From NCBI RefSeq assembly GCF_001652585.1, contig NZ_LWLG01000017.1:1-32000 (forward strand): a stretch of 32,000 nucleotides of DNA, read 5' to 3'. The position numbers and the translations under genes are program-made. The DNA is from Thermosulfurimonas dismutans (GTDB taxonomy: Bacteria; Desulfobacterota; Thermodesulfobacteria; Thermodesulfobacteriales; Thermodesulfobacteriaceae). This document shows, in pieces, positions 9,037 to 23,910 of the stretch (position 1 is its first letter; every line of letters starts with the position of its first letter). The notes under the pieces were generated by a model that ran no database searches, was not told the DNA's origin, and worked only from the letters and a program-made list of their open reading frames with translations.

Positions 9037-9114
9037 TGGCGTCCCCGGCGGGATTTGAACCCACGTTGCCGGCGTGAAAGGCCGGTGTCCTGGACCTGGC
9101 TAGACGACGGGGAC
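9037..9114 (-). tRNA. tRNA-Glu (anticodon UUC), CCA encoded
   Basis: The reverse complement folds as GTCCCCG/TC/GTC..GAC/A/CCGGC-CTTTCAC-GCCGG/CAAC/GTGGG-TTCAAAT-CCCGC/CGGGGAC/G/CCA. It is almost colinear with E. coli tRNA-Glu. Confidence 0.9.
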
Positions 9115-9155
9115 GCCGCCTTTTCCTTAAAAGCTTTTATGTCTCCTTTCTCAAG

Positions 9156-9195
9156 TGGGCCGAGCAGGATTCGAACCTACGCTTCTTAGCTTAAA
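9156..9195 (-). pseudogene. 3' fragment of a tRNA-Lys-like gene (T-arm plus acceptor 3' strand); candidate att repeat
   Basis: Positions 9150-9195 match 19482-19527 (the 3' part of intact tRNA-Lys plus 6 nt of flank) at 40/46 positions by hand alignment. No D-arm or 5' acceptor strand follows. Confidence 0.65.
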
Positions 9196-9617: not shown

Positions 9618-9775
9618 TTACGATAAAGCTCCTTGTTTTGAAAGATAATTCCTTTCCGCAAGACGGTAAAGATACGCCGATCCTTACGCCCCGCCACTAC
9701 ACATGAAGTGCCCCCCATTTTTGACACAACCTTTGTGTTAGGCGAAAATACTAGGAAAGGAGGGGGTCACTACAC

Positions 9776-9798
9776 GTCCGCTGAAGCGAATTGTTAGG
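9776..9798 (-). repeat. Truncated terminal attC (R''/L'' arm only)
   Basis: GTCCGCTGAAGCGAATTGTTAGG matches the right-hand arm of the other attC copies. The partner arm (CTAACGCC..CTCAGCGG) is missing at 9700-9775. Confidence 0.6.
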
Positions 9799-10045
9799 AC
9801 TTTATAATCTTTTCATATTCCGAATGTTTACCAATCCAAAACCAAACAATTCCTTCTTCTATTTCTATCCCTATGGCTCTATATTTTCTACCAATCCGCA
9901 CCGACTAGTAATTAGCAACTTTCTTCAAATGCAATGATGGATGGTACGGATCTTTCTTAAGGAGTTCAAAATTCTTATCGGCCAATCTTTTGACTTCTTC
10001 GGGTAACCTCTCATATTCTTTCCAAAAAGAGGGGCTGGCATATGC
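9794..10045 (-). pseudogene. Decayed RelE/ParE-family toxin (paralogue of 10861..11118)
   Basis: Hand translation gives ..YASPSFWKEYERLPEEVKRLADKNFELLKKDPYHPSLHLKKVANY*SVRIGRKYRAIGIEIEEGIVWFWIGKHSEYEKIIKS. It is colinear with the intact toxin but has an in-frame TAG (nt 9905-9907) where the paralogue has Trp, and no start codon. Confidence 0.7.
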
Positions 10046-10223
10046 CGGCCCGGAAATCTTTAATGGCTTGTTCTGCTAATTTTTCTAGTTTTCCTAGTTT
10101 TACATCTCTTTCGAATTCTTTATCCCAAAGTTCCTGTTCAAAATCTTCTATCCACTCTAAGAGGATTTTTAGATCATTTTCTGGCAATTTTTTAATGTTT
10201 TCGATAATTTCGTGGACTTGCAT
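10011..10223 (-). CDS. Antitoxin-like protein (paralogue of 11118..11318), C-terminally extended into the dead toxin gene
   Basis: MQVHEIIENIKKLPENDLKILLEWIEDFEQELWDKEFERDVKLGKLEKLAEQAIKDFRAG parallels MISVEEIKSIIEKLPEREFIELRKWILEKDWENWDKKIEEDSRKGLLDFLIEEALEE. The internal ATG at 10223 is preferred over the track start 10271. Confidence 0.5.
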   Translation of the reverse strand: MQVHEIIENIKKLPENDLKILLEWIEDFEQELWDKEFERDVKLGKLEKLAEQAIKDFRAGICQPLFLERI

Positions 10224-10303
10224 GAAATCGGCCCCCCAGAAAGATTCGATTCTATTTAAAATTTTAACCAATCAAGATAAAATAACCAAATATTTTAATT
10301 TCT

Positions 10304-10364
10304 CCTAACGCCCAAACTCAGCGGCGGCGCCAGTCGGCGCCGTCCGCTGAAACGAGTTGTTAGA
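10304..10364 (-). repeat. attC site (cassette 8/9 junction)
   Basis: Plus strand reads CCTAACGCCCAAACTCAGCGGC-GGCGCCAGTCGGCGCC-GTCCGCTGAAACGAGTTGTTAGA. Arms are inverted, the centre is palindromic, and the hicA stop codon lies in the core. Confidence 0.8.
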
Positions 10365-10572
10365 TTAAATTTTCTTTTTCTTCACCAATAATTTCAAATA
10401 ATTGCTTTACAATCTTAGGATGTAATATCTTTCCGCTATGGAAGGGTAAAACAAAACGTTTGTTTTCTTTCATGTAAATCCTATGACTTCCTTTACTCCT
10501 AATCAATTTAAAACCTGCTTGTAATAATAACTTTTCGGCTTCAACAGCAGTTAATCTTGGTAGTTTAGGCAA
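10360..10572 (-). CDS. hicA: HicA-family mRNA interferase toxin
   Basis: 70 aa. PKLPRLTAVEAEKLLLQAGFKLIRSKGSHRIYMKENKRFVLPFHSGKILHPKIVKQL is a typical HicA/YcfA pattern. It overlaps hicB by 8 nt and appears to use a TTG start. Confidence 0.8.
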   Translation of the reverse strand: MPKLPRLTAVEAEKLLLQAGFKLIRSKGSHRIYMKENKRFVLPFHSGKILHPKIVKQLFEIIGEEKENLI

Positions 10573-10783
10573 CCCTTACCTCTAAAGAAGTAGTCAAAAT
10601 CTCCTTGTTTAATAAAATTCTTTTTTCTTCTTCATCCAAAGTTTCTAAATATAATTCTACAGCTTCTTTAATATTTTCTAGAACTTCATCTAAAGTATCC
10701 CCCTGTGTATGACAACCTTTTAATTCAGGACAATAAGCATAGTATCCAAATTCATCTTTTTCTATTATTACTGTAACTTTCAT
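10565..10783 (-). CDS. hicB: HicB-family antitoxin (UPF0150 fold)
   Basis: 72 aa. MKVTVIIEKDEFGYYAYCPELKGCHTQGDTLDEVLENIKEAVELYLE is the canonical HicB N-terminal domain. Confidence 0.8.
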   Translation of the reverse strand: MKVTVIIEKDEFGYYAYCPELKGCHTQGDTLDEVLENIKEAVELYLETLDEEEKRILLNKEILTTSLEVRVA

Positions 10784-10806
10784 ATTCTACCTCGAATTTA
10801 TTTTTT

Positions 10807-10865
10807 TCTAACGCCTCAACTCAGCGGCTCGCTGTTAAGCGGGTCCGCTGAAGCGGGTTGTTAGG
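10807..10865 (-). repeat. attC site (cassette 7/8 junction)
   Basis: TCTAACGCCTCAACTCAGCGGCTCGCTGTTAAGCGGGTCCGCTGAAGCGGGTTGTTAGG. The toxin stop codon lies in the core. Confidence 0.8.
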
Positions 10866-11118
10866 TTCTTCTTATCATTTTCTCATAATCATCGTGTGTT
10901 CCGATCCAAACCCAAATGTAATCATTTCCGTCTTGGATTGCTAAGGCTCTGTAATAATCAGTTATTCTTACAGACCAAAATTTTCCAACCTTTTTAAAGT
11001 GCAGAGATGGATGATGTGGATTCTTTTTAAGTAATTCGAATTGTTCCTTTGCTCTCTGTTTAACTTTTTCAGGCAAGGCTTCAAAATATTTCCAAAATCT
11101 AGAAGTTGCTTTATGCAC
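10861..11118 (-). CDS. RelE/ParE-superfamily toxin
   Basis: 85 aa. FWKYFEALPEKVKQRAKEQFELLKKNPHHPSLHFKKVGKFWSVRITDYYRALAIQDGNDYIWVWIGTHDDYEKM matches the RelE/ParE-like toxin pattern. It has a 1-nt overlap with the upstream small ORF. Confidence 0.7.
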   Translation of the reverse strand: MHKATSRFWKYFEALPEKVKQRAKEQFELLKKNPHHPSLHFKKVGKFWSVRITDYYRALAIQDGNDYIWVWIGTHDDYEKMIRRT

Positions 11119-11318
11119 TAGATATCTTTTAACTTCCCTTCTCGCTTTTCCTCAAGGGCTTCTTCAATTAGAAAATCCAAGAGACCTTTTCGAGAGTCTT
11201 CTTCAATTTTTTTATCCCAGTTTTCCCAATCTTTTTCTAGAATCCATTTTCGGAGCTCGATAAATTCCCGTTCCGGCAACTTTTCAATTATGGATTTGAT
11301 TTCTTCTACCGAGATCAT
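11118..11318 (-). CDS. Cognate antitoxin (small acidic helical protein)
   Basis: 66 aa, directly upstream of and coupled to the toxin. The W..WD..IE.D...G.LD pattern is typical of partners of this toxin type. Confidence 0.55.
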   Translation of the reverse strand: MISVEEIKSIIEKLPEREFIELRKWILEKDWENWDKKIEEDSRKGLLDFLIEEALEEKREGKLKDI

Positions 11319-11378
11319 TTAACTTCTCTCCAAACTAGATTTATTTAAATTTTTAAGCTATTTTCAGAAATATTTCAA

Positions 11379-11432
11379 CTTAACGCTAATTTCAGCGGCG
11401 GCTATAGCCGTCCGCTGGAGAGGCTTGTTAGA
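11379..11432 (-). repeat. attC site (cassette 6/7 junction)
   Basis: CTTAACGCTAATTTCAGCGGCGGCTATAGCCGTCCGCTGGAGAGGCTTGTTAGA. The core variant is GTTAAGT on the cassette strand. Confidence 0.75.
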
Positions 11433-11478
11433 AGTTTTTATTCTTAAATCTCATGTTTAAGTCCTTTTATATTTTTAC

Positions 11479-12975
11479 TTAATTATATTTTACCTTGGAT
11501 TCTACATAAATTATTGCATTTTCTAATGATTTATTAAAATCATCCACCAACTGTTTATTTTCCTCTTTCCATCTTTTAAAAACTTTTGCACATCCTTTCC
11601 CCCAATATTTCTTTTGTTCACTAAACCACTTTTTCATTTTTTCACGATTATCAGTATTAGGTTTATTTGCAAGAAAAATTTCTTTTGTATATTGACCAAT
11701 TGTTCCCCAAAATTTATCTTCTGGAGATAATGATTTTAAAAAATCATAAATAACATTTTCCGGTCTTTTTTCACCAGGCAAATATACAACATTTTTATAT
11801 CTGCTTTTTTTCTTATCCCCATCTAAAACAATTATACTATAAGGAAATGTTGGAGCTTTATGTTTAAGAAGATTTAAATAATTTTCAGCACCTAAATTAA
11901 GATTAGAAATTTTAACTCGTTTTCTTAGCTTTGGATCTATTATATTTCGCAGAAATATTCTAGCTTCTTCGTCCTCTGTATATAAATTTATTTTAGGATT
12001 TTCATGTGTTGGACATATTTCATAGCGTAAAGCAGATATAATTTGTTTTAACTTATTTAAATTTTGATATGGAATTACTTTTTCACCTCGTTTTTCAAGG
12101 AAAAGAAAACTTATATCGCTTGAATTTGAAAACATTTTATCCTCTAACATTGTCAAAATATCAGTTGAGTGGGTTGTAAAAATAATTTGAATTTTAAATT
12201 CTTTCGAAAATTTTAAAAACACCTCTAATAATTTTCTTTGTGCTCCTGGAAATAAAGTAGCATCAACTTCATCTATTAATAATATTCCCCCTTTATATTT
12301 ATCTTTTAATCTATCCTTAAGTTTTTTAAAAGACAAAATAGCTGTAAGTATTTGACCTAAATTATCTTCTCCAGCAGAATTGCTGAAAGCATCATGTGTT
12401 TTATGAGAGGGCGAATAAAATCTTTTGTGCTGTGTCTTAAAATCTTCAATATTGATTAATTCTTCTGATGCAAAGATTAAGTTGTAATAATGCTCATACC
12501 ACTCTTTATCAGAATTCTCTATTTTTAATGGTTTAAGATTTATATCTTTATCTTTTTCACGAGCAATAGGAAACAACCTTTCTAATCCTAAATATATTAC
12601 AGGCAAATTGATTTTACCTTCACCAGCTGCTTTTTTACCAACATGAATTCTAAATCTTTTTTCTGTCTCATTGTATCCTCTAAAATATGCTTTACGAACT
12701 GTATTATCATCGAAAATCACTTCATAGTCATATTTACTGTTTTTCTCATGCTTGAGAGAGAAACGGAATATTTCGCTAAATTCTGTAGCAAATCTTCGAC
12801 CTAACAGAGTTCGTTGAGTACCTTTAAAATCGAAAATGTGACCTATTAATCCTAAAAGTGCTGATTTCCCCGTACCATTTCTTCCAGCAATAACTGTGAT
12901 TTTTTTACCCACTTCAAATTCAATATTTTTAAGATTTCTAAAGTGATGGATTTTTACACGTTTAATTCTCATCAA
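11479..12975 (-). CDS. ABC/AAA_15-21-type ATPase fused to a Toprim/DUF4435-like C-terminal region (OLD-like); candidate defence protein
   Basis: 498 aa. Walker A GRNGTGKS, signature-like SAGEDNLGQIL, Walker B ILLIDEVDATLFP, H-loop TTHS. The C-terminal region has acidic motifs NLYTEDEEARIFL and IIVLDGDKK, followed by YLPGEKRPENVIYDFL. Confidence 0.65.
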   Translation of the reverse strand: MMRIKRVKIHHFRNLKNIEFEVGKKITVIAGRNGTGKSALLGLIGHIFDFKGTQRTLLGRRFATEFSEIFRFSLKHEKNSKYDYEVIFDDNTVRKAYFRGYNETEKRFRIHVGKKAAGEGKINLPVIYLGLERLFPIAREKDKDINLKPLKIENSDKEWYEHYYNLIFASEELINIEDFKTQHKRFYSPSHKTHDAFSNSAGEDNLGQILTAILSFKKLKDRLKDKYKGGILLIDEVDATLFPGAQRKLLEVFLKFSKEFKIQIIFTTHSTDILTMLEDKMFSNSSDISFLFLEKRGEKVIPYQNLNKLKQIISALRYEICPTHENPKINLYTEDEEARIFLRNIIDPKLRKRVKISNLNLGAENYLNLLKHKAPTFPYSIIVLDGDKKKSRYKNVVYLPGEKRPENVIYDFLKSLSPEDKFWGTIGQYTKEIFLANKPNTDNREKMKKWFSEQKKYWGKGCAKVFKRWKEENKQLVDDFNKSLENAIIYVESKVKYN

Positions 12976-13050
12976 ATCCCCCCTTCTAATTATATTTCTT
13001 TTAAAGTTTCCTTGATTTTCTAAACAATTTTTTCAATTTCTGTTTTTTCT

Positions 13051-13109
13051 TCTAACGCCCAAACTCAGCGGCCGGCAGTCTCGCCGGTCCGCTGAAGCGG
13101 GTTGTTAGG
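13051..13109 (-). repeat. attC site (cassette 5/6 junction)
   Basis: TCTAACGCCCAAACTCAGCGGCCGGCAGTCTCGCCGGTCCGCTGAAGCGGGTTGTTAGG. Confidence 0.8.
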
Positions 13110-13115
13110 AATATT

Positions 13116-13448
13116 TTATTTAAAATCTTTATTTTCTACTAACCAACTATCGTCTGGTTTATAACCATTTTTTATTGCAGCATTATAAAACTGAGTAAAT
13201 CCAGATATGGCTTGGTTTAATGCTAAATCTTCAGTATCGTTCCATGGTCGGCTAGTAATATATGGTCCCGCTTGCAAAGGAGTATGAATAAAATGACTTT
13301 GATAGAATTCATAATATCCAGTTCTGATATTTTTGTATATTTTTATGGTAATAGTTTTCGAAATACCATCTAAAGAAAATTTATACTCTGATACTAATAC
13401 TTTAGCTTCATTAATTATTTCATCTTTAAAAATTTCTTCAATTTCCAT
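13116..13448 (-). CDS. Hypothetical cassette protein (110 aa)
   Basis: Single ORF filling the cassette, with an AGGAGG RBS inside the R' flank. No family recognised. Confidence 0.55.
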   Translation of the reverse strand: MEIEEIFKDEIINEAKVLVSEYKFSLDGISKTITIKIYKNIRTGYYEFYQSHFIHTPLQAGPYITSRPWNDTEDLALNQAISGFTQFYNAAIKNGYKPDDSWLVENKDFK

Positions 13449-13457
13449 AAAAAACCT

Positions 13458-13517
13458 CCTAACGCCTAAACTCAGCGGCCGGCGATTATCGCCGGTCCGC
13501 TGAAGAGGTTTGTTATG
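13458..13517 (-). repeat. attC site (cassette 4/5 junction)
   Basis: CCTAACGCCTAAACTCAGCGGCCGGCGATTATCGCCGGTCCGCTGAAGAGGTTTGTTATG. The ORF stop codon lies in the core. Confidence 0.8.
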
Positions 13518-14388
13518 ATTGCCTTTGTGATTTTTTCATTTCATCTGGAAACAAAATCTCAACTGGCATATCAATATATCCCGAAGCATTCCTTTCCCAA
13601 CAAAGTTTTATCTGTTTAAATTGATATTCAATATATTTATCATCACTTGCAGCTTTAGGTCCAACATATTCATTATACCTGCCAAACGTTTCCCATCTAA
13701 CTTTAATATTTTCTAATTCCATTGCTCCAACTTTTTTAGAAATAAACACAAATCCATCCCAATCAATTCTTAATTGATTTAAAATTCTATCATCTGCTTC
13801 AGAAAAAAGTTCTGCACATTTTTCTTTAGTAAAATCATTGATATGAAATTCTGGATAATGATATTTAAATAAATCTCTATAATCTAAAAATATAGTAGCA
13901 TAAGCTTCATTTCTTAGCTCTATAGGATAATCATTTTTAAGAGATACTAAAAATACTTTCACTTTTCCTCTCAATTTTTTTAAAATAGGAACAAAATCTC
14001 GATCACTAGATAATAAAATTAAAATTTCTACTTCCTTTGCGTAATCCTCTATTTTACTAGAGATAGTTGTATCAACTCCTTTTTCTGAAGAACCAGGAAG
14101 ATCCACTATATCAACATACACTCCTATTTCAGCTTTAAGTCTTTTTAACAATAATTCTTGCTCTTTTTCAGAAAATCTTTGACTCCTAGGACCGAATTTT
14201 TTTTTAGAACACACAAATTCAACAATTTCTGCCTTTTCCTTTACATCAAAATCAGCAAGTTTTTTATTAATGATTTCTCTTAAACTTTCTAAACTTAATT
14301 GTCTAGCAATATGATTTGGTTTAATTCCTAATTCAATAACACGATTAATATAATTAGGTCCATCAACAATAATCGGTATGCCTTGCAT
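13513..14388 (-). CDS. NYN/LabA-like (PIN-like) domain protein with an unknown ~110-aa C-terminal domain
   Basis: 291 aa. The IIVDGPNYINR, EKGVDTTISSKI and LLSSDRDFVPILKKL triad matches the acidic-residue layout of the NYN (DUF88) domain. Confidence 0.65.
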   Translation of the reverse strand: MQGIPIIVDGPNYINRVIELGIKPNHIARQLSLESLREIINKKLADFDVKEKAEIVEFVCSKKKFGPRSQRFSEKEQELLLKRLKAEIGVYVDIVDLPGSSEKGVDTTISSKIEDYAKEVEILILLSSDRDFVPILKKLRGKVKVFLVSLKNDYPIELRNEAYATIFLDYRDLFKYHYPEFHINDFTKEKCAELFSEADDRILNQLRIDWDGFVFISKKVGAMELENIKVRWETFGRYNEYVGPKAASDDKYIEYQFKQIKLCWERNASGYIDMPVEILFPDEMKKSQRQS

Positions 14389-14405
14389 ATTTTTTACCTT
14401 TACCT

Positions 14406-14464
14406 CCTAACGGCCAAATTCACTCGCCCGCCGTATGGCGGGTCGGGTGAAAAGGTTTGTTAGA
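14406..14464 (-). repeat. attC site, sequence-divergent but structure-conserving variant (cassette 3/4 junction)
   Basis: CCTAACGGCCAAATTCACTCGCCCGCCGTATGGCGGGTCGGGTGAAAAGGTTTGTTAGA. Both arms are changed relative to the consensus, yet they remain complementary. Confidence 0.75.
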
Positions 14465-15197
14465 TATTTTTTCTAATATAAAGTATCTCACTATCACTAA
14501 TTCTAGTTTTTATGTCCTCTTCTGAATAATCCAAAAGTTCTACGCATCTGTTGTAATATATTTCATACCATTCACCAAAATATTTATGAAAATCTGTTAC
14601 CATTTTATCAAAGGTCAGCTGTTCAAAATTCGGGCAGTCTTCATTACCTATAACTACTTTTGCTCCACCCAACATAATTCCTTGTTGAGTAAAACCGATA
14701 AGGTGCCCACAAAAATATTTAAGGGATGTAACCTGCATTGAACAGTTATCTTCTTTTTTCTTCGGAGAAGCAAAAGCCGTATGAGCGAAAATTTTATGTC
14801 TATATCTTCTATATTTTTTTATCGCATCTTCTCTCTGTTTTAAGATCTTTTTGTTTACTTCATCGCCAATCTTGTCATGCATATTCTTATATTCTTTTTT
14901 TAAAATATCTGTTAAATTTAAAGCAAAAACAATAAAGGAACCGATACGCCATATTTCTCTTGCTATGAAGGACTCTAATTTAGATTCTTTGACCCCAATA
15001 GCAGGAAATTTTTCTATTAATTTTTTGTTCATCTTAATATCACTTTTATAAGAATTATAAATTTCCAATAATATTCTTAAAATACTATCAATTGAAGAAA
15101 GTATATCTATTGAGGGAATAGTCATTATATAATTTTGAGAATTTCTTCTTAAAGATAGTACTAAATATGGCAAAGAACGAAATGAGTATTCTAACAT
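14460..15197 (-). CDS. Hypothetical cassette protein with a HEPN-like R-x5-H motif
   Basis: 245 aa. KKYRRYRHKIFAHTAF resembles the R[NH]xxxAH HEPN catalytic motif. The protein is otherwise unrecognised. Confidence 0.45.
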   Translation of the reverse strand: MLEYSFRSLPYLVLSLRRNSQNYIMTIPSIDILSSIDSILRILLEIYNSYKSDIKMNKKLIEKFPAIGVKESKLESFIAREIWRIGSFIVFALNLTDILKKEYKNMHDKIGDEVNKKILKQREDAIKKYRRYRHKIFAHTAFASPKKKEDNCSMQVTSLKYFCGHLIGFTQQGIMLGGAKVVIGNEDCPNFEQLTFDKMVTDFHKYFGEWYEIYYNRCVELLDYSEEDIKTRISDSEILYIRKNI

Positions 15198-15222
15198 TAT
15201 CCCTTCCTTTTTAGATTTATCA

Positions 15223-15281
15223 TCTAACGCCTAAACTCAGCAGCCGGCGTATACGCCGGTCCGCTGGAGCGAATTGTTAGA
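15223..15281 (-). repeat. attC site (cassette 2/3 junction)
   Basis: TCTAACGCCTAAACTCAGCAGCCGGCGTATACGCCGGTCCGCTGGAGCGAATTGTTAGA. Confidence 0.8.
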
Positions 15282-15455
15282 TTATTTTCATTTTCCTGTT
15301 CTTTTTCAGAAAAAACGTCCATTATCTTCTTGTTCTCTTCCTTTTAAACCTAAAATCCTGCGAAGCAGTATTCAATTTCTTTTTTATCCTGATTCGCCCG
15401 ACTCTTGAAGTGTATTTCTTACCGATTTATGCAATCAATTCTACGGACCGATCTC

Positions 15456-16103
15456 TCAATTTCTCCTTTTTGCAGAGCTGATTATTGAATTAATATAATC
15501 GTTGATCTCTTTAATTCTTGACCCAAGTATAATATTATAGCCCTTTAGTCTTTTATCCCATACTCTTTTTGCTAAGCGAACAAAATGTAAAAAATCATTT
15601 TTCATATCTTCTTGAAACTCTTCATCAATTATGACTCCAGAAACAGGACCAGTACCTGTGATCCGTTCTGTAAATGATTCTTTTTTATATGCAGTTTTCA
15701 TATCTAAATCGTATCTTACTCCTATACCCAGCTTATCTATCTTCTGGATCCTTTCAAAAGTTTGTTTGGTACATATTCTATATTTGCCATTCGCTCTTTC
15801 TTTGCATTCTGCAATAATTTTACTTAAATTGTGACTGCATTTTCTTGCTACTATATATGCCTCTTTAGCGGTTTCGTCTTTTTTAGATAATCCTATCAGT
15901 ATTGCTTTTAATATGCACTCGAGTGCCATTCTGAGCATAATGAACTGTTTAGTCATAATAGACATGTTGTGAACAGGGAAACTTTGACTGTGATGATATA
16001 GAGCAATCCAATCAGCTGCATCTCTGAAGAAATGGCCAAATAAAACAGCTTTTACATGTGACTCTAAGGAAAACCGTTTGCCAATCTTTTTTAATGTAGT
16101 CAT
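15456..16103 (-). CDS. HEPN-domain-like protein
   Basis: 215 aa. The helix pattern ALECILKAILIGL .. CSHNLSKIIAE .. LGIGVRYD resembles the classical HEPN domain (..E.aLKA.L.. / ..tHdL..L.. / ..RY..). A canonical Rx4-6H motif is not evident. Confidence 0.5.
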   Translation of the reverse strand: MTTLKKIGKRFSLESHVKAVLFGHFFRDAADWIALYHHSQSFPVHNMSIMTKQFIMLRMALECILKAILIGLSKKDETAKEAYIVARKCSHNLSKIIAECKERANGKYRICTKQTFERIQKIDKLGIGVRYDLDMKTAYKKESFTERITGTGPVSGVIIDEEFQEDMKNDFLHFVRLAKRVWDKRLKGYNIILGSRIKEINDYINSIISSAKRRN

Positions 16104-16115
16104 TTATTTATCGTG

Positions 16116-16172
16116 TCTAACGCCAAACTCAGCGGCGCCATGTAATGGCGTCCGCTGAAGAGATTTGTTAGG
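16116..16172 (-). repeat. attC site (cassette 1/2 junction)
   Basis: TCTAACGCCAAACTCAGCGGCGCCATGTAATGGCGTCCGCTGAAGAGATTTGTTAGG. The ORF stop codon lies in the core. Confidence 0.8.
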
Positions 16173-17010
16173 TCTTTTCATTAATAATCCTATTTGCAAA
16201 ATAATTATCAAAAAAGTTTAAAAAGTCTCGAAGTCCCAAAATAATAGAATTAAGTAGTTTCTCTACCTCAAATCTGTCTTGAATTATTGTAACTAAGTAA
16301 TGGTCTCCTCGTTCATAAAAAGAAATATCAATAGAACCAACATGAGTAACATAATCTCTTATATCGCGAACAATAAAAAACCATTCCATGTGATTTTTTA
16401 TGTATTGTTTCATAGTATCATCTGAAATTTCTCCCGATCTATGTTTATCTTTGCAAATATATTTTATATAATCAGAAAAACTACAGAATTGACGAGAACT
16501 AGGACCATACAAGAAATGGAGCATAGTAGCAATTGAATCCATAATACTTCTTACATTAAATAAAAGACCAGCGATCTCTGATTTTAATGCATAAACTTGG
16601 TCACCTATATTAAATGAAGGCTGTCCTGTTCTTGGAAGTATTTTCCGAGTTTTTTGGTAATAAACTTGGATGTCTTTAATTATTTTTTGTATCCTTTCAA
16701 TATTCAAAGTTAAAGAATAAAGCTTATCAGCTATGTATTTAAAGTTAAATACATAATATTGTCCTGCTAAAAAATATTGTCGAATATATCCATTTTTAGT
16801 TTCTATATAATATCCTATATGATGAAATCTTTCCCAATATCTAGTCTTTAAAATAGCTTTTCTAAGTTGTGGAAAAGGATCTTTTAAAGCAGGTATTGTA
16901 TAACTAACTAGTTTACCCCGGGAGGGAGATAAGCTTACTCTGTAAGTATTCCTTAATCTTTCTTGTATTTTCTCTTGCGCTTGTTTAGTTTTTATAATTT
17001 CAAAACGCAT
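16168..17010 (-). CDS. Hypothetical first-cassette protein with a possible HEPN R-x4-H motif
   Basis: 280 aa. The C-terminal half contains WFFIVRDIRDYVTHVGS (RDYVTH = Rx4H). No family recognised with certainty. Confidence 0.45.
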   Translation of the reverse strand: MRFEIIKTKQAQEKIQERLRNTYRVSLSPSRGKLVSYTIPALKDPFPQLRKAILKTRYWERFHHIGYYIETKNGYIRQYFLAGQYYVFNFKYIADKLYSLTLNIERIQKIIKDIQVYYQKTRKILPRTGQPSFNIGDQVYALKSEIAGLLFNVRSIMDSIATMLHFLYGPSSRQFCSFSDYIKYICKDKHRSGEISDDTMKQYIKNHMEWFFIVRDIRDYVTHVGSIDISFYERGDHYLVTIIQDRFEVEKLLNSIILGLRDFLNFFDNYFANRIINEKT

Positions 17011-17075
17011 TTTTATTTATCTAACATTACTTTTATACTTTCTTAGATTTAAAGCCTATTGCCAATATTTTTGGA

Positions 17076-17105
17076 ATGATAGCTTTTTACAATAAAAAAT
17101 GTCAA
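17076..17105 (-). promoter_or_regulatory. Candidate cassette promoter Pc (TTGACA-18 nt-TATCAT)
   Basis: On the minus strand, the -35 TTGACA is at 17105-17100 and the -10 TATCAT at 17081-17076. It points into the cassette array from within attI. Confidence 0.4.
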
Positions 17106-17222
17106 ACATTAAGATTAAATCTTATTACGAATCTCTTGAGATAATAGAGGATAAAAATGTTTATTTTTATTTTTATGTCTTAAAATTTCTTAAAATCTAA
17201 CTTTCTGGATAATACACAAAAT

Positions 17223-17251
17223 TTGCCTAATTTTGCAAAGTAAAATAAGAT
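17223..17251 (+). promoter_or_regulatory. Candidate intI promoter (TTGCCT-17 nt-TAAGAT)
   Basis: Hexamers at 17223-17228 and 17246-17251, about 40 nt upstream of the intI ATG. Confidence 0.3.
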
Positions 17252-17290
17252 GGCTTGCAGATAATATCTTTGCTGGCAAAAAGGATCAAA

Positions 17291-18358
17291 ATGGAATCGC
17301 AAGAAAAGTTGATGGAAAAATTTGGGGCCTTTCTCAAGAAGGTGGAAAAGCGAGAAAGGGTGGTCCCCTTCATGGTGCGGTGGGTGGTGCAGGCCCTGCA
17401 GGAATATGAACTGCCCCCCGGACAAAAGTTAGCCCCCGCTCAGAAAAAACAATTTCTCTTTAAATTATCCCAAAAATACGAGCCTTGGCAAGTAGAACAG
17501 GCTGATCGGGCCTTAAAGCTATATGAGTATTTCCTGAACACCTTATCCCAAAAATCTCCGACAGAGAGGACAGAGGCCGAATGGGCGGAGGCCTTGGAGA
17601 AGGCCAGAGAGGTCCTCAGGCGCAAACGGTACTCCTACCGCACCGAAAAATCTTACCTTGACTGGATAAGATGCCTGGCCGAATATCTGGACTACAAATC
17701 ACCGGAAGAAGTTTCCGGCGAGGATTTTCAGGATTTTCTCACCCATCTTGCCGTGGAAAGAAACGTAGCCCCTTCCACCCAGAATCAGGCTTTAAATGCC
17801 CTGGTGTTCTTTTATCGCCATGTGCTCGAAAAAGAAATTGATCCCTATATTGAGGCCGTAAAGGCCCGGGAGAGAAGAAGGCTTCCGGTGGTGCTAAGCC
17901 GGGAAGAGGTGGAGGCCGTGCTCTCGGTCTCGGAACTTGAGGAAACCTATTATCTAATCTGTGCCCTCATGTATGGAGGGGGCTTGAGAGTAAGTGAGAC
18001 GGTAAGACTCCGGGTAAAAGATCTGGATTTTGAACGAGGCTTGATCACGGTATTTTCCGGCAAGGGAGACAAAGACCGGGTAACCGTAGATCCGCGGACT
18101 GAGACCGTGCGTCGGCATCACATCCATCCCAGTGCGGTGCAACGGGCCTTCAAGAAGGCGCTACGGAAGGCCAGAGTGGAAAAACCCGCTACGGTGCATT
18201 CCCTGCGGCACAGCTTCGCTACCCACCTCCTTGAGGACGGCTACGATATTCGTACCATTCAGGAACTTCTGGGGCACAAGAGTCTGAGCACCACTATGAT
18301 TTACACTCATATCGTGGGACGGCGGGTCACCGGGGTGGTGAGTCCGCTTGACCGCTAA
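17291..18358 (+). CDS. intI: Integron integrase (IntI-type tyrosine recombinase), apparently lacking the IntI-specific insertion
   Basis: The sequence is colinear with IntI1 as I recall it. Matching blocks are RYSYRTEKSYLDWIRCLAEYL, STQNQALNALVFFYRHVL, RRLPVVLSREEV, GGLRVSETVRLRVKDLDFERGLITVFSGKGDKDR, DPRTETVRRHHIHPSAVQRAFKKA, HSLRHSFATHLLEDGYDIRTIQELLGH and TTMIYTH. The ATG at 17291 has an AAGGA RBS, whereas the track start 17255 is a TTG. Confidence 0.85.
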   Translation: MESQEKLMEKFGAFLKKVEKRERVVPFMVRWVVQALQEYELPPGQKLAPAQKKQFLFKLSQKYEPWQVEQADRALKLYEYFLNTLSQKSPTERTEAEWAEALEKAREVLRRKRYSYRTEKSYLDWIRCLAEYLDYKSPEEVSGEDFQDFLTHLAVERNVAPSTQNQALNALVFFYRHVLEKEIDPYIEAVKARERRRLPVVLSREEVEAVLSVSELEETYYLICALMYGGGLRVSETVRLRVKDLDFERGLITVFSGKGDKDRVTVDPRTETVRRHHIHPSAVQRAFKKALRKARVEKPATVHSLRHSFATHLLEDGYDIRTIQELLGHKSLSTTMIYTHIVGRRVTGVVSPLDR

Positions 18359-18374: not shown

Positions 18375-18701
18375 ATGCGTATACTAGCCACGATTCTGAT
18401 GGTGATCGGGTATCTTTTAATAGGGGCCCATTTTCTGCGGGCTGGGCATTCGTTGGTGGCCCTGGGGCTTGCCTTTGCGCCGGCTCTTCTCTTTCTCAAA
18501 CACCGGATGGTGCGCCTGATCCTTTCCGCAGGCCTGGGGCTGGCCCTTATTGAATGGGGCCGGACTTTCGTTTTCCTGAAACGGATCTATGAGGCTCACG
18601 GCCTTCCTTTCAGCAAGTCTGGTTTCATCCTGGGAGGAGTAATGGCCGTTACCTTTCTGGCCGTAGCCCTCAACCTGCGGGAGGATCTGCGGAACAAATG
18701 A
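18375..18701 (+). CDS. Small integral membrane protein (3-4 predicted TM helices)
   Basis: MRILATILMVIGYLLIGAHFL.. is hydrophobic throughout. AAAGGAG RBS at 18362-18368. ATGA coupling to the downstream ABC remnant. Confidence 0.55.
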   Translation: MRILATILMVIGYLLIGAHFLRAGHSLVALGLAFAPALLFLKHRMVRLILSAGLGLALIEWGRTFVFLKRIYEAHGLPFSKSGFILGGVMAVTFLAVALNLREDLRNK

Positions 18702-18968
18702 TCCGGGTCCGCCATCTGCACTATCGTTACCCGGAAGGAACTCGGGAGGCCCTTTCCGGGATCTCGCTTACGGTAAATCCGGGAGAGGTGCTGCTTCTTT
18801 CCGTCCTCTGCTGACTTATTCCTTCACAGGCCGGAGGTGAGTTTTCCGGAGAGGTGAAGGTTCTGGGGCGAAAGGCTCCCTTTTCTCCCGCGGAGGTCTT
18901 TCCCGAGGTGGCCTTCGGGCTTGAAAACCTGGGGTATCCGGAAAGGGAACTCGAAAATAAACTAAGCA
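18698..18968 (+). pseudogene. Decayed ABC transporter ATP-binding gene (EcfA/CbiO-like) remnant
   Basis: MIRVRHLHYRYPEGTREALSGISLTVNPGEVLLLSVLC* then, in the same frame, LIPSQAGGEFSGEVKVLGRK..EVAFGLENLGYPERELENKL. The Walker A segment is missing, there is an in-frame TGA at 18812-18814, and homology ends abruptly near 18968. Confidence 0.65.
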
Positions 18969-19295
18969 TCAACCCAAGCTATCGCCAACAAAAGTGGCGG
19001 ATAGTCGTCTACTCCCAACTTTAAGCTCAAATGCAAACGCAGGGACATGAACTATAAGGGAGTAAAGAGCATCCTTTAGTAAACGCGAATCGGCCTCTAC
19101 AGAAAGAAAAACGCCTAGAGGTAAGGAAAGAGACGAATTGGCAGCAGAAGAAACAAAACCTGTAAGACGGGTCTTGAAACCATCTGCTATTTCCACTAAT
19201 TCAAACTCGGGCATACGAACCTTTCCTACTACCTGCTTAGTATCCTTGTCTATTATATCAATAACCATATAAAAGGCCTCAAAGGATTCAAGCAC
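18969..19295 (-). CDS. Hypothetical protein (108 aa)
   Basis: ORF only; no recognisable motifs. It starts exactly where the ABC remnant ends. Confidence 0.3.
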   Translation of the reverse strand: MLESFEAFYMVIDIIDKDTKQVVGKVRMPEFELVEIADGFKTRLTGFVSSAANSSLSLPLGVFLSVEADSRLLKDALYSLIVHVPAFAFELKVGSRRLSATFVGDSLG

Positions 19296-19487
19296 TGGCT
19301 CTACCGAAGGCTTCCTTTTTTCCAGGTGGTTTATCCAGAAAGCTTGGCAAAGGAAATAGAAGAGGATCTTTCTTTTTTCCTAAGTAAGCTAAAGAAAGAT
19401 GATCTCCAATGATTTAATTGCCTATATCAAACAAATCCTTTCGGACACCTAAATTAAGGCGGAGGACTGAAACCCTTGATCCTCAAG

Positions 19488-19560
19488 TGGGCCGGGCAGG
19501 ATTCGAACCTGCGACTCCTGGCTTAAAAGGCCAGTACTCTGCCAGCTGAGTTACCGGCCC
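19488..19560 (-). tRNA. tRNA-Lys (anticodon UUU), CCA not encoded
   Basis: The reverse complement reads GGGCCGG/TA/ACTC-AGCTGGCA-GAGT/A/CTGGC-CTTTTAA-GCCAG/GAGTC/GCAGG-TTCGAAT-CCTGC/CCGGCCC/A. This is a perfect 73-nt cloverleaf. Confidence 0.9.
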
Positions 19561-19611: not shown

Positions 19612-20561
19612 GAGGGTGTTCGAAAAAACTAGATATTGACGTTGGGGGAGCCTAGAATTAACTCCCCCAACATGAGAAGAAGCAAACTGCGTCTCAAGAC
19701 CATCTTCAAAATAACCCGAGCCATAATAAATGAAAAGCCCCTGGCCTTTCGAGGTCGCCCAAAAACTTATTCCGATGCCTTCATTATCTCTATCTTCCTC
19801 TACCAAACCCTAAAAAATCTATCCTACCGAGAAGCACTAGAAGAGGCCTTCGATATATTGGGACGAAGACCCGCCCTTTCTACCTACCACTACCGAGTCT
19901 CAAAATTCCCTAAACAATCCCTGAAAATCCTTCTCCAAGAATTGGCCCGAAAACTTCTAGCAAAAGAACATCACCTCTTTTCCTTTATCTCTGATGGCAC
20001 CGGCTTTAGTTATCATGACCTCTACCCTTTAAAATTCTTAAGAGGCTCAGAAATCAGAAAAGTAAAAGCCCATATAAGAGTGGTCCCCATAATCGGAGTA
20101 ACTTCATCCGGAAAAAGAATCGTCATTACCGCTGAAACCGGAGGTCCCTATGCCAGCGAGGTAAAACTTCTCCTGGAAGCTCTGGCAGAAATTGATCCAG
20201 TCACTTTTAAAGCCGAATGTTTTATAGCAGATAAATGCTATGACAGTCTCAAGGTCATGGAAAAACTTGTAGAGCTTGGATTAAAACCGGCCATAAAAGT
20301 AAAAGAAACCTTCAGGCAGAAGGTAAAACATCCTCTGCGGAAAGATTCCAGAATTTTCTGGGAGAAATGGGGCCGAAATAGATATCTGATTGAAAGTTTG
20401 TTTGGTACGGTAAAACTGAAAATAGGCTCGCATTTTAGGGTAAGAAAGGAAGAAATAGCCCAGAAGAGAGGACTGGCCGCTTTTGTGCTCTATAATATGT
20501 ACCTCCTGGCTACCCTCCTCTATATCTCGTTGCTCCTTAAAAACTATTTTCGAACACTCTC
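19612..20561 (+). mobile_element. Insertion sequence (950 bp, IS4/IS5-superfamily DDE transposase)
   Basis: The terminal inverted repeats are GAGGGTGTTCGAAAA (19612-19626) and the complement of TTTTCGAACACTCTC (20547-20561), matching at 14/15 positions. They are flanked by a perfect 11-bp direct repeat AGAATTATTAA (19601-19611 and 20562-20572). Confidence 0.75.
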
Positions 20562-20592
20562 AGAATTATTAAAAGCCTTTTCATCCCAATAA
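19672..20592 (+). CDS. DDE transposase (IS4/IS5 superfamily)
   Basis: Acidic triad context FISDGTGFS / CFIADKCYDS / RYLIESLFGTVKLK (R-x3-E-x6-K). The ATG at 19672 is preferred over the TTG at 19636. The ORF reads through the right IR, and its stop (20590-20592) lies in flanking DNA. Confidence 0.7.
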   Translation: MRRSKLRLKTIFKITRAIINEKPLAFRGRPKTYSDAFIISIFLYQTLKNLSYREALEEAFDILGRRPALSTYHYRVSKFPKQSLKILLQELARKLLAKEHHLFSFISDGTGFSYHDLYPLKFLRGSEIRKVKAHIRVVPIIGVTSSGKRIVITAETGGPYASEVKLLLEALAEIDPVTFKAECFIADKCYDSLKVMEKLVELGLKPAIKVKETFRQKVKHPLRKDSRIFWEKWGRNRYLIESLFGTVKLKIGSHFRVRKEEIAQKRGLAAFVLYNMYLLATLLYISLLLKNYFRTLSELLKAFSSQ

Positions 20593-20614: not shown

Positions 20615-20643
20615 TTGACAAGCAACTCCAGCAATGTTAATAA
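20615..20643 (+). promoter_or_regulatory. Candidate promoter of the TonB-receptor operon (TTGACA-17 nt-TAATAA)
   Basis: Hexamers at 20615-20620 and 20638-20643, about 45 nt upstream of the ATG at 20688. Confidence 0.45.
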
Positions 20644-20670
20644 TTCGTGCTACGAATATAAAATTCGTAA
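20643..20670 (+). promoter_or_regulatory. Putative operator: palindrome ATTCG-TGCTA-CGAAT plus a third AATTCGTAA half-site
   Basis: Perfect 5+5 palindrome at 20643-20657 that begins at the last base of the -10 hexamer. A repeat of the half-site lies at 20662-20670. Confidence 0.3.
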
Positions 20671-20687
20671 TACTAAGGAGGTCGGAG

Positions 20688-22616: not shown

Positions 22617-22642
22617 ATCCTAATCGGTAAAGGAGGAAAAAC

Positions 22643-23113
22643 ATGAAAAAATTATTAATAGTACCCTTTAGTTTTATGTGTCTTTTAGTTTTCAGTAGTT
22701 TAGTCAAAGCTCACGATCTTTGGCTCCAAGCCCAAAATTATTATCTCGATTCTATGGAAAACATTGAAATAAAAGTTGTGTTTGGTCATAACTTTCCTTA
22801 TGAAGATATTTTAATACCAAAAAAAGATATAAGTGAATTTTCATATGTAACTCCTGAAGGAGTTAAAAAATCGGTTACAAATATTTGGGAAAGCATAAAG
22901 GGTAACAGGAAAAGAGAATACAAAAAAGGAAGTTTGATAGGAGAGATTGATTTATCTAAATGCACAAAATGCAAAGAGGGGACTTATATTATTGCTGCTT
23001 CTAGAGTTAGAAAAGGAGACAAGTTTCATGTACCTTCAGGAAAATATGGTAAAGCTATAATTATAGTAGGCCAAAAAGGTACGCAAAAAATAACTAAAGG
23101 GGGTGTCTTATGA
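22643..23113 (+). CDS. Short DUF4198 (CbiK-like periplasmic Co/Ni-binding) paralogue
   Basis: Signal peptide followed by AHDLWLQ..VVFGHNFP, which is the DUF4198 N-terminal signature. At only 156 aa it lacks the C-terminal half. The gene is visibly AT-rich. Confidence 0.55.
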   Translation: MKKLLIVPFSFMCLLVFSSLVKAHDLWLQAQNYYLDSMENIEIKVVFGHNFPYEDILIPKKDISEFSYVTPEGVKKSVTNIWESIKGNRKREYKKGSLIGEIDLSKCTKCKEGTYIIAASRVRKGDKFHVPSGKYGKAIIIVGQKGTQKITKGGVL

Positions 23114-23910
23114 AGATAAAGAAAAAATTTGTGATTGGTATTTTGACAAGTCTTTTTCTTCTGCTGGCCTTTATTCCTAAAACCTATGCTCACTTTCTGT
23201 GGTTAAACGTTGATGATTATACCCCTAAAAAAGGACAAGAGGTCCGCATCACCCTCGGTTGGGGACACAAGTTCCCCGAAACACCAACCCCTCCTAGAGA
23301 GGAGATGGTAAAGAAACTCTCCCTCTTTTTGATAGATCCTGATGGTCAAAAAATTCCTCTTAATATTCCCGTAAAAGACGGAAAACCACAGCCCGTTAGA
23401 GTAAAGGTAACCAAAAACGGCATTTATTTAGCCGTAGCTATCGCCAAACACTTTGTTTCCAAAACCACGGAAGGTTATTTCTATAAATCCAGAGACGAGT
23501 TAAAAGACAAAGAAATTATTTATTCCAAGTGGTCTGAAACTACTGCGATCGCTATTATAAGTGTGGGTAAATCTAAAAAATTTGATACTCCTAACAATCT
23601 AGACTCTAGCTTTTACATCCTTCCTCTGGTTAATCCCTCGGTTTTAAAAGAGGGAGAAACCTTTCAGGTAAAGGCAATATTTTACGGTAAACCCTATCGC
23701 ACCTGGGTGTATGCTACTTATGCGGGATTCAGTAAATTTAAAGATACCTATGCTTGGGCAACCAAAACAGACAAGAGGGGCATAGCTAATATTAAAATTT
23801 TGAAGAGTGGGGTAAACTGGTTGCTTAAAAGCGAGGTTGAGAAACACTATCCAGATCCAAAGAAAGCCGATATAGCAAGTTACAAATGTTCCGTAACATT
23901 TGGATTCTAG
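23110..23910 (+). CDS. DUF4198 (CbiK-like periplasmic Co/Ni-binding) protein
   Basis: Signal peptide followed by AHFLWLNVDDYTPKKGQEVRITLGWGHKFPE. Full length, 266 aa. Confidence 0.65.
   Translation: MKIKKKFVIGILTSLFLLLAFIPKTYAHFLWLNVDDYTPKKGQEVRITLGWGHKFPETPTPPREEMVKKLSLFLIDPDGQKIPLNIPVKDGKPQPVRVKVTKNGIYLAVAIAKHFVSKTTEGYFYKSRDELKDKEIIYSKWSETTAIAIISVGKSKKFDTPNNLDSSFYILPLVNPSVLKEGETFQVKAIFYGKPYRTWVYATYAGFSKFKDTYAWATKTDKRGIANIKILKSGVNWLLKSEVEKHYPDPKKADIASYKCSVTFGF

What the first reader, a model, noticed from the sequence alone, without database searches (positions are those of the whole stretch)
18071..18121. IntI ORF appears to carry an in-frame deletion of the IntI-specific domain
The protein aligns block by block with class 1 IntI as I recall it, up to GKGDKDR (IntI1: GKGSKDR). 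It resumes at DPRTETVRRHHIHPSAVQRAFKKA (IntI1: [24 protein letters not shown]). In IntI1 these two blocks are separated by roughly 55-65 residues that include the integron-specific helix contacting the extrahelical attC bases. Here only VTV separates them (nt 18080-18088). The catalytic residues (R in GGLRVSE, HSLRHS, GH, IYTH Tyr) and the reading frame are intact. The enzyme is therefore either a fossilised integrase, leaving the array immobile, or a natural minimal IntI variant with altered substrate recognition.
Basis: partly seen in the sequence, partly recalled or inferred. Interest (0 to 1): 0.65.

Follow-up and report, generated by a model that had tools for sequence, protein, structure and literature searches.

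The report
Integron integrase gene with internal deletion
The recombinase gene of a chromosomal integron in a hot-vent sulfur bacterium has lost 61 codons from its catalytic domain without breaking the reading frame, so it is most likely a recently disabled gene of a common kind that automatic annotation would still call an intact integron integrase.

Summary
The intI ORF (17291-18358, +) lacks exactly 183 nt (61 codons) between 18084 and 18085. Only V-T-V joins GKGDKDR to DPRTETVRRHH. The lost segment equals VchIntIA residues 168-227. All 119 nearest homologues carry it.

The deletion removes the IntI-specific I2 helix and ALERKYP patch. It also removes about 24-30 residues of the core shared by all tyrosine recombinases. 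The result is therefore a gutted catalytic domain, not a minimal, Xer-like IntI.

No conserved family carries this deletion. The one close parallel (P0148) is an isolated allele among full-length relatives, with its own independent 183-nt deletion and an added stop codon. A 95%-identical relative (L039) has a differently truncated intI.

The window lineage shows 26 synonymous and 7 non-synonymous changes. This gives no sign of relaxed selection, so the deletion is recent. The attI site, a Pc-like promoter and 8 intact attC sites (9 cassettes) remain.

Best reading: a recently inactivated integrase, which freezes the array unless another IntI acts in trans. Inactivated intI genes are common (about one third), so interest is low.

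The parts
17291..18358 (+). intI with the internal deletion. 355 aa from ATG 17291, with AAGGA 6 nt upstream; the ORF is open from TTG 17255. It has an N-terminal extension of about 100 aa, then the SAM-like domain, then an interrupted catalytic domain.
   Evidence: TIGR02249 scores 310.7 bits (cutoff 265); PF13495 and PF00589 both match.
18083..18086 (+). Junction of the 183-nt (61-codon) deletion, inside codon T277. GGGTAA(C)|CGTAG, with 1 nt of microhomology.
   Evidence: DNA alignment with L001.
17922..17933 (+). Perfect tandem duplication TCTCGG x2. It inserts Val-Ser (LSVSELEE versus LSELEE) and is absent from all 8 aligned relatives.
17011..17290 (.). attI region between intI and the first cassette. 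GTTAG on the minus strand lies at 17025-17021, just before the first cassette ATG (17010). The region is 77% identical to the region upstream of intI in L001.
17076..17105 (-). Pc-like promoter pointing into the array (TTGACA-18-TATCAT, 11 of 12 matches).
   Evidence: a consensus match only.
9798..17020 (-). Cassette array of 9 cassettes, 31% G+C. Complete attC sites (the + strand is the bottom strand) lie at 16117-16171, 15224-15280, 14407-14463, 13459-13516, 13052-13108, 11380-11431, 10808-10864 and 10305-10363.
   Evidence: Each attC folds as a CTAAC/GTTAG stem with an unpaired spacer and a bulged base.
9770..9797 (-). Terminal half attC. Only the ...GTCCGCTGAAGCGAATTGTTAG half is present, so the distal end of the array is truncated.
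10360..11318 (-). Toxin-antitoxin cassettes: HicA (10360-10572) with HicB-like (10565-10783), and a ParE-like toxin (10861-11118) with an upstream small ORF (11118-11318).
11479..12975 (-). Cassette encoding a 498-aa AAA_15/AAA_21 ATPase. It matches defence-system ATPase models (PtuA, AriA, GajA, ATPase-Toprim).

Best explanation
This is the intI gene of a chromosomal integron in a Thermosulfurimonas-like member of the Thermodesulfobacteriota. A single 183-bp illegitimate deletion has recently disabled it. The deletion lies between two similar short motifs: the beta3 motif ...KDRVTV(FPR) and the later ...KDLSV(DPR). Because both endpoints are in the same codon register, the reading frame survives and a 355-aa protein can still be made. 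That protein keeps the N-terminal DNA-binding half and every catalytic residue. It lacks the end of beta3, the long helix behind the active site, the integron-specific I2 helix with the ALERKYP patch, and the Trp-rich loop and strand that hold the flipped-out attC bases. It should therefore be unable to fold a working catalytic domain or to recognise folded attC hairpins. Cassette excision and insertion by this enzyme are lost. The nine-cassette array, whose attC sites are still intact, is frozen unless another IntI acts in trans. Shown here: the deletion, its extent, its uniqueness, its recency and the intact substrates. Inferred: loss of activity.
For: The gap equals VchIntIA 168-227. It is a clean 183-nt gap relative to the roughly 95% nt-identical orthologue on L001. 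The segment is present in 119 of 120 nearest homologues, whose median length is 411 aa. It contains 12 columns that are invariant across 40 homologues: R288, G294, P298, L301, K304, Y305, A308, W312, W314, W316, F318, P319. In the AlphaFold model of the intact orthologue the segment forms strand 261-264, helix 267-289, helix 299-304 and strand 319-326. In the model of the deleted protein, confidence falls to pLDDT 43-54 at the junction and is lower across the catalytic domain. XerA alignments show that core residues beyond the IntI insertion are lost. Published work describes I2 as the element that docks the extrahelical attC bases and as necessary for activity (PMC7790495; PMC2095811, citing Messier & Roy 2001 and MacDonald 2006). 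No conserved family carries the deletion. Among the best 150 of 1.84 billion representatives, only three other proteins cross this junction in a single matched stretch. The closest parallel, P0148, is an isolated 325-aa allele among 437-aa relatives. It has its own independent 183-nt deletion at a GGAYCGG pseudo-repeat and an in-frame stop codon upstream. L039, a 95% nt-identical relative, has intI cut off after ...IYHQD. Recency: the window branch has 26 synonymous and 7 non-synonymous changes, and a neutral phase longer than about 10% of the branch is rejected. The 8 attC sites keep their canonical structure. About one third of intI genes are reported to be inactivated, and active IntI is costly to the host (PMC2426708, PMC3510236).
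Against: Activity was not measured. The ORF has no stop codon or frameshift. All catalytic residues survive, as do P232/H240/H241-equivalent residues (DPRTETVRRHH). No excess of non-synonymous change is visible, which also fits a protein that is still under selection. The source appears to be a draft or metagenome-derived contig, and no reads were available to confirm the junction. Neither the junction nor a second lineage-specific marker was found in the metagenome collection.
Confidence: 0.8

Rival explanations
1. The deleted protein is kept for a new, non-canonical role. It might be a catalytically inert attI or DNA-binding regulator, a dominant-negative subunit that damps recombination, or a recombinase with altered substrate choice.
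For: The frame and all catalytic residues are intact. The window branch shows 26 synonymous and 7 non-synonymous changes, so no relaxation is detectable. An unrelated lineage (P0148) independently lost the same 61-codon module in frame, and that allele occurs on 8 contigs. The N-terminal domains are modelled with high confidence.
Against: The deletion removes about 24-30 residues of the universal catalytic core, not only I2. It also removes 12 invariant columns. Each deleted allele is a singleton nested among full-length relatives. The P0148 gene also carries a premature stop codon. The low dN/dS is explained equally well by a recent deletion. The shared module boundary is explained by the conserved pseudo-repeat, and by searching with a deleted query.
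Confidence: 0.07
2. The deletion is not in the organism's main genome. It could be an assembly or consensus artefact, or a minority allele in a mixed population captured in a metagenome-assembled contig.
For: The protein is known from a single contig of 45 kb. The exact protein is not on record in the contig index. The junction 24-mer and a second lineage marker have no match in the metagenome collection. No reads could be inspected.
Against: The gap is a clean multiple of three, with unique sequence on both sides and no long repeat that could collapse an assembly. Deletions of the same type are confirmed in independent assemblies of another lineage: P0148 on 8 contigs from NCBI and Logan.
Confidence: 0.08
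3. The integrase is an ancient fossil that has been dead for a long time, and the array has been immobile through much of the lineage's history.
For: The distal attC is truncated. The locus lies next to an IS and a duplicated half-tRNA, which suggests past rearrangement.
Against: If the gene had been neutral for more than about 10% of the branch since the split from L001, at least 13 non-synonymous changes would be expected against 7 observed (P<0.05). There are no stop codons or frameshifts. Eight attC sites keep the canonical stem, spacer and bulge.
Confidence: 0.05

Closest known systems
Full-length integron integrases of Thermosulfurimonas and related Thermodesulfobacteriota (P0002 on JGI contig Ga0256840_1023041; Thermosulfurimonas sp. 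F29, GCA_019688735.1; MAG S012_5)
   Same: They are orthologues, 87-93% identical over aligned residues. They share the roughly 100-aa N-terminal extension and a homologous attI region. Their cassette arrays are likewise low in G+C and have CTAAC...GTTAG attC sites.
   Different: They are 407-414 aa and contain the 61-residue segment FPRKLTPELEVHL...ALERKYP...WSWFWLFPSKDLSV. They lack the Val-Ser duplication.
VchIntIA (IntI4) bound to attC, PDB 2A3V
   Same: It is the best match both by sequence (E 1.6e-59) and by fold (Foldseek E 3e-12). The catalytic residues are conserved, as are the P232/H240/H241 equivalents.
   Different: Residues 168-227 have no counterpart. These include the I2 helix and, from my recollection of MacDonald et al. 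2006, W219, which contacts the extrahelical bases. The window protein also has about 100 extra N-terminal residues.
Inactivated intI genes of chromosomal integrons (Nemergut et al. 2008, PMC2426708; Xanthomonas integrons; intI2 with its internal stop; Starikova et al. 2012, PMC3510236)
   Same: A disabled integrase sits next to a still recognisable cassette array. The lesion is lineage-specific while close relatives are intact.
   Different: Most described cases are frameshifts, stop codons or insertions. Here a single in-frame deletion leaves a clean ORF that still scores above the TIGR02249 cutoff, so it would not be flagged as a pseudogene.
P0148, 'tyrosine-type recombinase/integrase [bacterium]' (MAG GCA_049472315.1)
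   Same: It is an independent 183-nt, 61-codon in-frame deletion of the same module, joining GKGQK to DRLSVDPRS. It also lies next to a divergent set of small cassette-like genes.
   Different: It is only 43% identical and belongs to another IntI clade, whose relatives are 437 aa. Its junction is 3-4 codons earlier, at a GGAYCGG repeat. It also has a premature stop codon near the 5' end.
Xer-type recombinases (XerA 5HXY, 4A8E), the I2-less ancestors of IntI
   Same: They have no I2 helix, and they share the SAM-like N-terminal domain and the catalytic motifs.
   Different: Xer proteins keep the roughly 30 residues between beta3 and the strand before the HxxR helix. The window protein lacks them, so it is not a reversion to a Xer-like architecture.

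Membership tests
Integron integrase (IntI) | Tyrosine-recombinase catalytic domain (PF00589) with the residues R-K-H-x-x-R-H/W-Y | tested here: met
   PF00589 scores 115 bits, but in two stretches. R245, K270/K273, H315, R318, H341 and Y350 are present.
Integron integrase (IntI) | IntI-specific additional domain: the I2 helix and ALER(K)YP patch, which is the region modelled by the IntegronFinder intI_Cterm profile | tested here: not met
   The region is absent: VchIntIA 168-227 has no counterpart, there is a 61-aa gap in alignment A1, and a phmmer search with the segment fails only for this protein. The intI_Cterm HMM itself was not available.
Integron integrase (IntI) | Score above the curated cutoff of NCBIfam TIGR02249 (integrase_gron) | tested here: met
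   310.7 bits against a cutoff of 265, in two stretches. The IntI1 equivalog NF011946 scores 233.6 against 435, which is not met and is expected for a distant class.
Integron integrase (IntI) | Orthology to full-length IntI proteins | tested here: met
   The nearest homologues are 407-415 aa, and sources name many of them 'integron integrase'. The protein is colinear with them apart from the gap.
Integron integrase (IntI) | Adjacent attI and a divergently oriented array of attC-bounded cassettes | tested here: met
   GTTAG lies at 17025-17021 next to the first cassette. There are 8 complete attC sites and 1 half site on the opposite strand.
Integron integrase (IntI) | Catalyses attI x attC and attC x attC recombination | not testable with these tools
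   This needs an in vivo or in vitro recombination assay.
Complete integron versus CALIN (IntegronFinder classes, PMC4889954) | A complete integron has a protein that matches both PF00589 and intI_Cterm within reach of attC sites | tested here: inconclusive
   PF00589 matches. The region on which intI_Cterm is built is deleted, so the locus would probably be classed as a CALIN next to a generic recombinase. The program and its profile were not run.
Xer-like, I2-less tyrosine recombinase (the 'minimal IntI' reading) | An intact catalytic core between the beta2-beta3 hairpin and the HxxR helix, lacking only the IntI insertion | tested here: not met
   XerA residues 204-233 (5hxy) and 168-196 (4a8e) fall in the gap. 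Residues 264-277 of the intact orthologue align to XerA 168-181.

The most novel reading that the evidence does not exclude
The 61-codon in-frame loss is a recurrent, selected way of converting an integron integrase into a stable non-recombining protein. Such a protein could bind attI as a repressor, or poison tetramers made with an IntI acting in trans, and so lock a cassette array while keeping the gene. Two observations hint at this. The same 183-nt module was lost independently in two unrelated IntI clades. The window allele also shows no excess of non-synonymous change.
Probability: 0.06. Interest if true: 0.6.

Novelty: new member of a known kind. Interest (0 to 1): 0.22.

Why it matters
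There are three main consequences.

- **Annotation caveat.** An integron integrase can be disabled by an in-frame deletion and still pass the curated family threshold (TIGR02249, 310.7 against 265). Pipelines will name it 'integron integrase'. Tools that require the IntI-specific profile will instead call the array an orphan (CALIN).
- **Activity estimates.** The case adds a thermophilic Thermodesulfobacteriota example to the well-known pattern of frequent, lineage-specific intI inactivation. For estimates of integron activity in environmental genomes, such alleles should be counted as inactive.
- **Possible deletion hot spot.** An unrelated clade shows the same 183-nt loss. This suggests a small hot spot between two similar strand motifs, which could be looked for systematically.

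None of this changes the current understanding of integron biology.

Tried and rejected
- **Contig look-up.** Looking up the exact window protein in the contig index found no record.
- **Metagenome scans.** Scans for the deletion junction 24-mer and for the lineage-specific TCTCGG-duplication 25-mer both found nothing. The allele could not be confirmed or dated in other samples.
- **GTDB species representatives.** The scan did not return the window's own genome. The best hit was Thermosulfurimonas MAG S012_5, which is full length.
- **IntI-mediated secondary-site deletion.** The left junction reads GTTAC on the minus strand, but the right junction has no GTT core, so I rejected this.
- **Long direct repeats at the breakpoints.** There are none. 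There is only 1 nt of microhomology plus an imperfect motif.
- **Reversion to a Xer-like enzyme.** Rejected, because core residues are also missing.
- **Low model confidence around the catalytic Tyr.** This is seen in the intact orthologue too, so it is not a consequence of the deletion.
- **Broken ABC ATPase downstream.** By eye, 18690-18980 looked like a broken ABC ATPase gene. Pfam and BLASTP gave no support.
- **Messier & Roy 2001 (PMC95504).** The paper is not held. Its result is cited only through papers that quote it.
- **Rfam.** It gave only the two tRNAs.

Full report
**1. The observation**

The window holds an ORF at 17255..18358 (+), 367 aa from the first TTG. The protein database records it as 355 aa from ATG 17291 (P0001), and AAGGA lies 6 nt upstream of that ATG.

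Pfam finds the SAM-like N-terminal domain PF13495 and the tyrosine-recombinase domain PF00589. NCBIfam TIGR02249 'integron integrase' scores 310.7 bits against a cutoff of 265, but in two stretches, the first ending at profile position 163 of 315.

Against the crystal-structure sequence of VchIntIA (2A3V), residues 114-277 align to chain 6-167 and residues 276-367 align to chain 228-319. Sixty residues of VchIntIA (168-227) therefore have no counterpart. The catalytic Arg, Lys, His-x-x-Arg, His and Tyr are all in place.

**2. It is a deletion, and it is specific to this sequence**

- The 119 best database homologues are mostly 407-415 aa, with a median of 411.
- An alignment with eight of them shows a single 61-column gap in the window protein only.
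- A phmmer search with the 61-residue segment of the closest full-length orthologue finds it in 119 of 120 proteins. The exception is the window's own product. That orthologue is P0002, and the segment is residues 265-325: FPRKLTPELEVHLAKIRKIYHQDRRAGVAGVYLPYALERKYPEAGKEWSWFWLFPSKDLSV.
- At the DNA level, the orthologue on a JGI metagenome contig (L001) is about 95% identical on both sides. The window differs by one clean 183-nt gap. The window reads GGGTAA(C)CGTAG, where L001 reads GGGTAAC|TGTG...183 nt...TTTC|CGTAG. This leaves one ambiguous C at 18084.
- The flanking protein motifs resemble each other: ...KDRVTV-FPR and ...KDLSV-DPR. The breakpoints therefore sit in an imperfect in-register pseudo-repeat, which explains why the frame is preserved.
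- A second lineage-specific in-frame change is a perfect TCTCGG tandem duplication at 17922-17933. It adds Val-Ser in a variable loop.

**3. What was lost**

P0002 aligns colinearly with VchIntIA 8-319 in one stretch, so the intact relatives have the complete IntI architecture. In the AlphaFold model of P0002 (mean pLDDT 84.7), the deleted residues form four elements:

- the end of strand 261-264;
- a long helix, 267-289;
- a short helix, 299-304 (ALERKY, the I2 region);
- most of strand 319-326.

Twelve columns that are invariant across 40 homologues lie in the segment: R288, G294, P298, L301, K304, Y305, A308, W312, W314, W316, F318 and P319.

The IntI-specific insertion is described as about 25 residues carrying helix I2 (PMC2095811). 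I2 docks the extrahelical attC bases (PMC7790495, citing MacDonald 2006 and Messier & Roy 2001). The deletion is more than twice that size.

Alignments to archaeal XerA, which has no I2, show that XerA residues 204-233 (5hxy) and 168-196 (4a8e) fall in the gap. P0002 residues 264-277 align to XerA 168-181. About 24-30 residues of the core common to all tyrosine recombinases are therefore gone too.

The model of the deleted protein has pLDDT 43-54 around the junction and lower confidence across the catalytic domain. Its N-terminal domains stay confident. Its best structural match is still 2A3V. Low confidence near the catalytic Tyr also occurs in the intact model, so it carries no information about the deletion.

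**4. Is there a natural family of short IntI proteins?**

An exhaustive HMMER search of 1.84 billion representatives used the deleted protein as the query. Almost all of the best 150 hits match in two or three stretches, which means they carry the segment. Four match in one stretch:

- P0135 is a C-terminally aberrant fragment.
- P0201 and P0210 have other, differently bounded gaps.
- P0148 reads GKGQK-DRLSVDPRS and so lacks the same module.

P0148 is itself isolated. Its nearest relatives (69% and 62% identity) are 437 aa and full length. Its DNA shows an independent 183-nt deletion at a GGAYCGG pseudo-repeat. Its gene has an in-frame stop codon where relatives read EKRTPEDV, which is why only 325 aa are called. 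It occurs on 8 contigs from different sources, so deletions of this kind are real alleles rather than assembly errors.

In addition, a Thermodesulfobacteriales MAG contig (L039) carries an intI that is 95% identical to the window's at the nucleotide level. It breaks off after ...IYHQD and continues into unrelated genes.

Together these results show repeated, independent decay of intI, not a conserved short variant.

**5. Age of the lesion**

I used L001 as the sister sequence and three further orthologues as outgroups. The window branch carries 26 synonymous and 7 non-synonymous polarised changes. Pairwise dN/dS values in the clade are 0.05-0.12.

With about 3.25 non-synonymous sites per synonymous site, a neutral phase covering 10% of the branch would give 13-17 non-synonymous changes. 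The probability of seeing 7 or fewer is then 0.005-0.05, depending on the baseline. The gene was therefore under purifying selection for nearly all of the branch. Either the deletion is recent or the shortened protein is still constrained.

**6. The surroundings**

intI is transcribed divergently from a cassette array on the minus strand.

- **attI.** The intergenic region ends in GTTAG (17025-17021), directly before the first cassette ATG. It is 77% identical to the corresponding region of L001. It contains a strong Pc-like promoter match pointing into the array.
- **attC sites.** Eight complete attC sites lie between 10305 and 16171. Each has the CTAAC/GTTAG outer stem, an unpaired central spacer, an inner stem and a bulged base. 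A ninth, terminal site at 9770-9797 is only a half site.
- **Cassettes.** The nine cassettes include HicA/HicB and a ParE-like toxin pair, a 498-aa AAA_15/AAA_21 ATPase with matches to defence-system ATPases, an NYN-domain protein, and several ORFs with no family.
- **Composition.** The array has 31% G+C, against 52% for intI and about 55% for the flanks. The same contrast is seen in the integrons of Thermosulfurimonas sp. F29 and of L001.

The substrates for recombination are therefore intact, and only the enzyme is damaged.

**7. Mechanism and rivals**

The best-supported reading (confidence about 0.8) is a recent illegitimate deletion that inactivates the integrase and freezes the array unless another IntI is present elsewhere in the genome. 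Loss of activity is inferred from three things: the loss of invariant residues and core secondary structure, the published requirement for the I2 domain, and the behaviour of parallel alleles. It has not been measured.

The rivals are:

- a retained non-catalytic or dominant-negative role (about 0.07);
- an assembly or minority-allele artefact (about 0.08);
- an ancient fossil (about 0.05), which the substitution pattern contradicts.

**8. Comparison with what is known**

About one third of intI genes in genomes are reported as inactivated by stop codons, frameshifts or large indels (PMC2426708). Active IntI carries a fitness cost that is quickly relieved by inactivating mutations (PMC3510236). 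Arrays without a recognisable IntI (CALIN) are abundant (PMC4889954).

This locus is one more example. Its particular feature is that the lesion is in frame and the ORF still passes the curated integron-integrase threshold. By descent the gene is an intI. By the defining IntI-specific domain it no longer qualifies as a functional member. It is also not a Xer-like minimal enzyme.

Novelty: a new member of a known kind. Interest is low (0.22). The recurrence of the same 183-nt loss in an unrelated clade is a small point that may deserve a systematic survey.

Noticed in passing
window 9150-9195 and 19482-19527; tRNA-Lys(UUU) 19487-19560 (-); tRNA-Glu 9037-9114 (-): There is a 46-nt direct repeat (87% identical) of the 3' half of tRNA-Lys, running from the anticodon loop to 5 nt past the 3' end. 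It brackets the whole integron (intI plus array, about 10.3 kb). This looks like the att sites of an island integrated into tRNA-Lys, but no integrase other than the damaged intI lies inside. In relatives, intI sits in other contexts: next to a CCA-adding enzyme gene in F29 and L004, and next to RHH/PIN genes in L003. No tRNA gene was found in the flanks held for those loci.
   Followed up: partly
L039:1-402 (MAG Thermodesulfobacteriales JALSKZ010000084.1): A close relative's intI (95% nt identity to window 17765-18084) is truncated after ...IYHQD and runs into unrelated genes. This is an independent lesion inside the same region that the window has lost.
   Followed up: yes
L085:7848-8978 (MAG GCA_049472315.1) compared with L087:1001-2314: An IntI from an unrelated clade (P0148) has its own 183-nt in-frame deletion of the same module, at a GGAYCGG pseudo-repeat, and a premature stop codon. 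NCBI names it only 'tyrosine-type recombinase/integrase'. It is seen on 8 contigs.
   Followed up: yes
window 9798-17020 compared with the flanks; L002, L001: The cassette arrays of this clade have 28-37% G+C. Their intI genes and host flanks have 50-57%. That is a large compositional gap for a chromosomal integron.
   Followed up: partly
window 17291-17620 (residues 1 to about 110 of IntI): An N-terminal extension of about 100 residues lies ahead of the SAM-like domain. It is predicted to be helical with high confidence and is shared by the whole 407-415 aa clade. Nemergut et al. 2008 mention an IntI clade about 120 aa longer than usual (PMC2426708). Its function is unknown.
   Followed up: no
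window 9770-9797: The last attC of the array is only a half site. The array ends abruptly, followed by a G+C-rich 118-aa ORF (9261-9617, no family) and the half-tRNA.
   Followed up: partly
window 18690-18980 (+): By eye this reading frame resembles the N-terminus of an ABC-transporter ATPase with the Walker A region missing and an in-frame TGA. Pfam and BLASTP gave no support, so this is unverified.
   Followed up: yes
window 682-8882: Type III-A CRISPR-Cas genes are present: Csm2 (682-1077), Cas10/Csm1 with an HD domain (1070-3490) and Cas6 (7971-8882). A 1252-aa protein with TPR and SEC-C motifs lies between them (3685-7443) and gives weak PADLOC matches through the SEC-C motif only.
   Followed up: no
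window 19636-20592 (+): A DDE_Tnp_1 transposase (IS) lies immediately beside the 5' side of tRNA-Lys. It is followed by a TonB-dependent receptor, DUF4198 proteins and a CobN/ChlI/ChlD-type chelatase cluster (20634-31123).
   Followed up: no
window 11479-12975 (-): One integron cassette encodes a 498-aa AAA_15/AAA_21 ATPase. It matches many defence-system ATPase models, including PtuA, AriA, GajA, AbiLi and ATPase-Toprim I-B across nearly its full length. It may be a single-gene defence cassette.
   Followed up: partly
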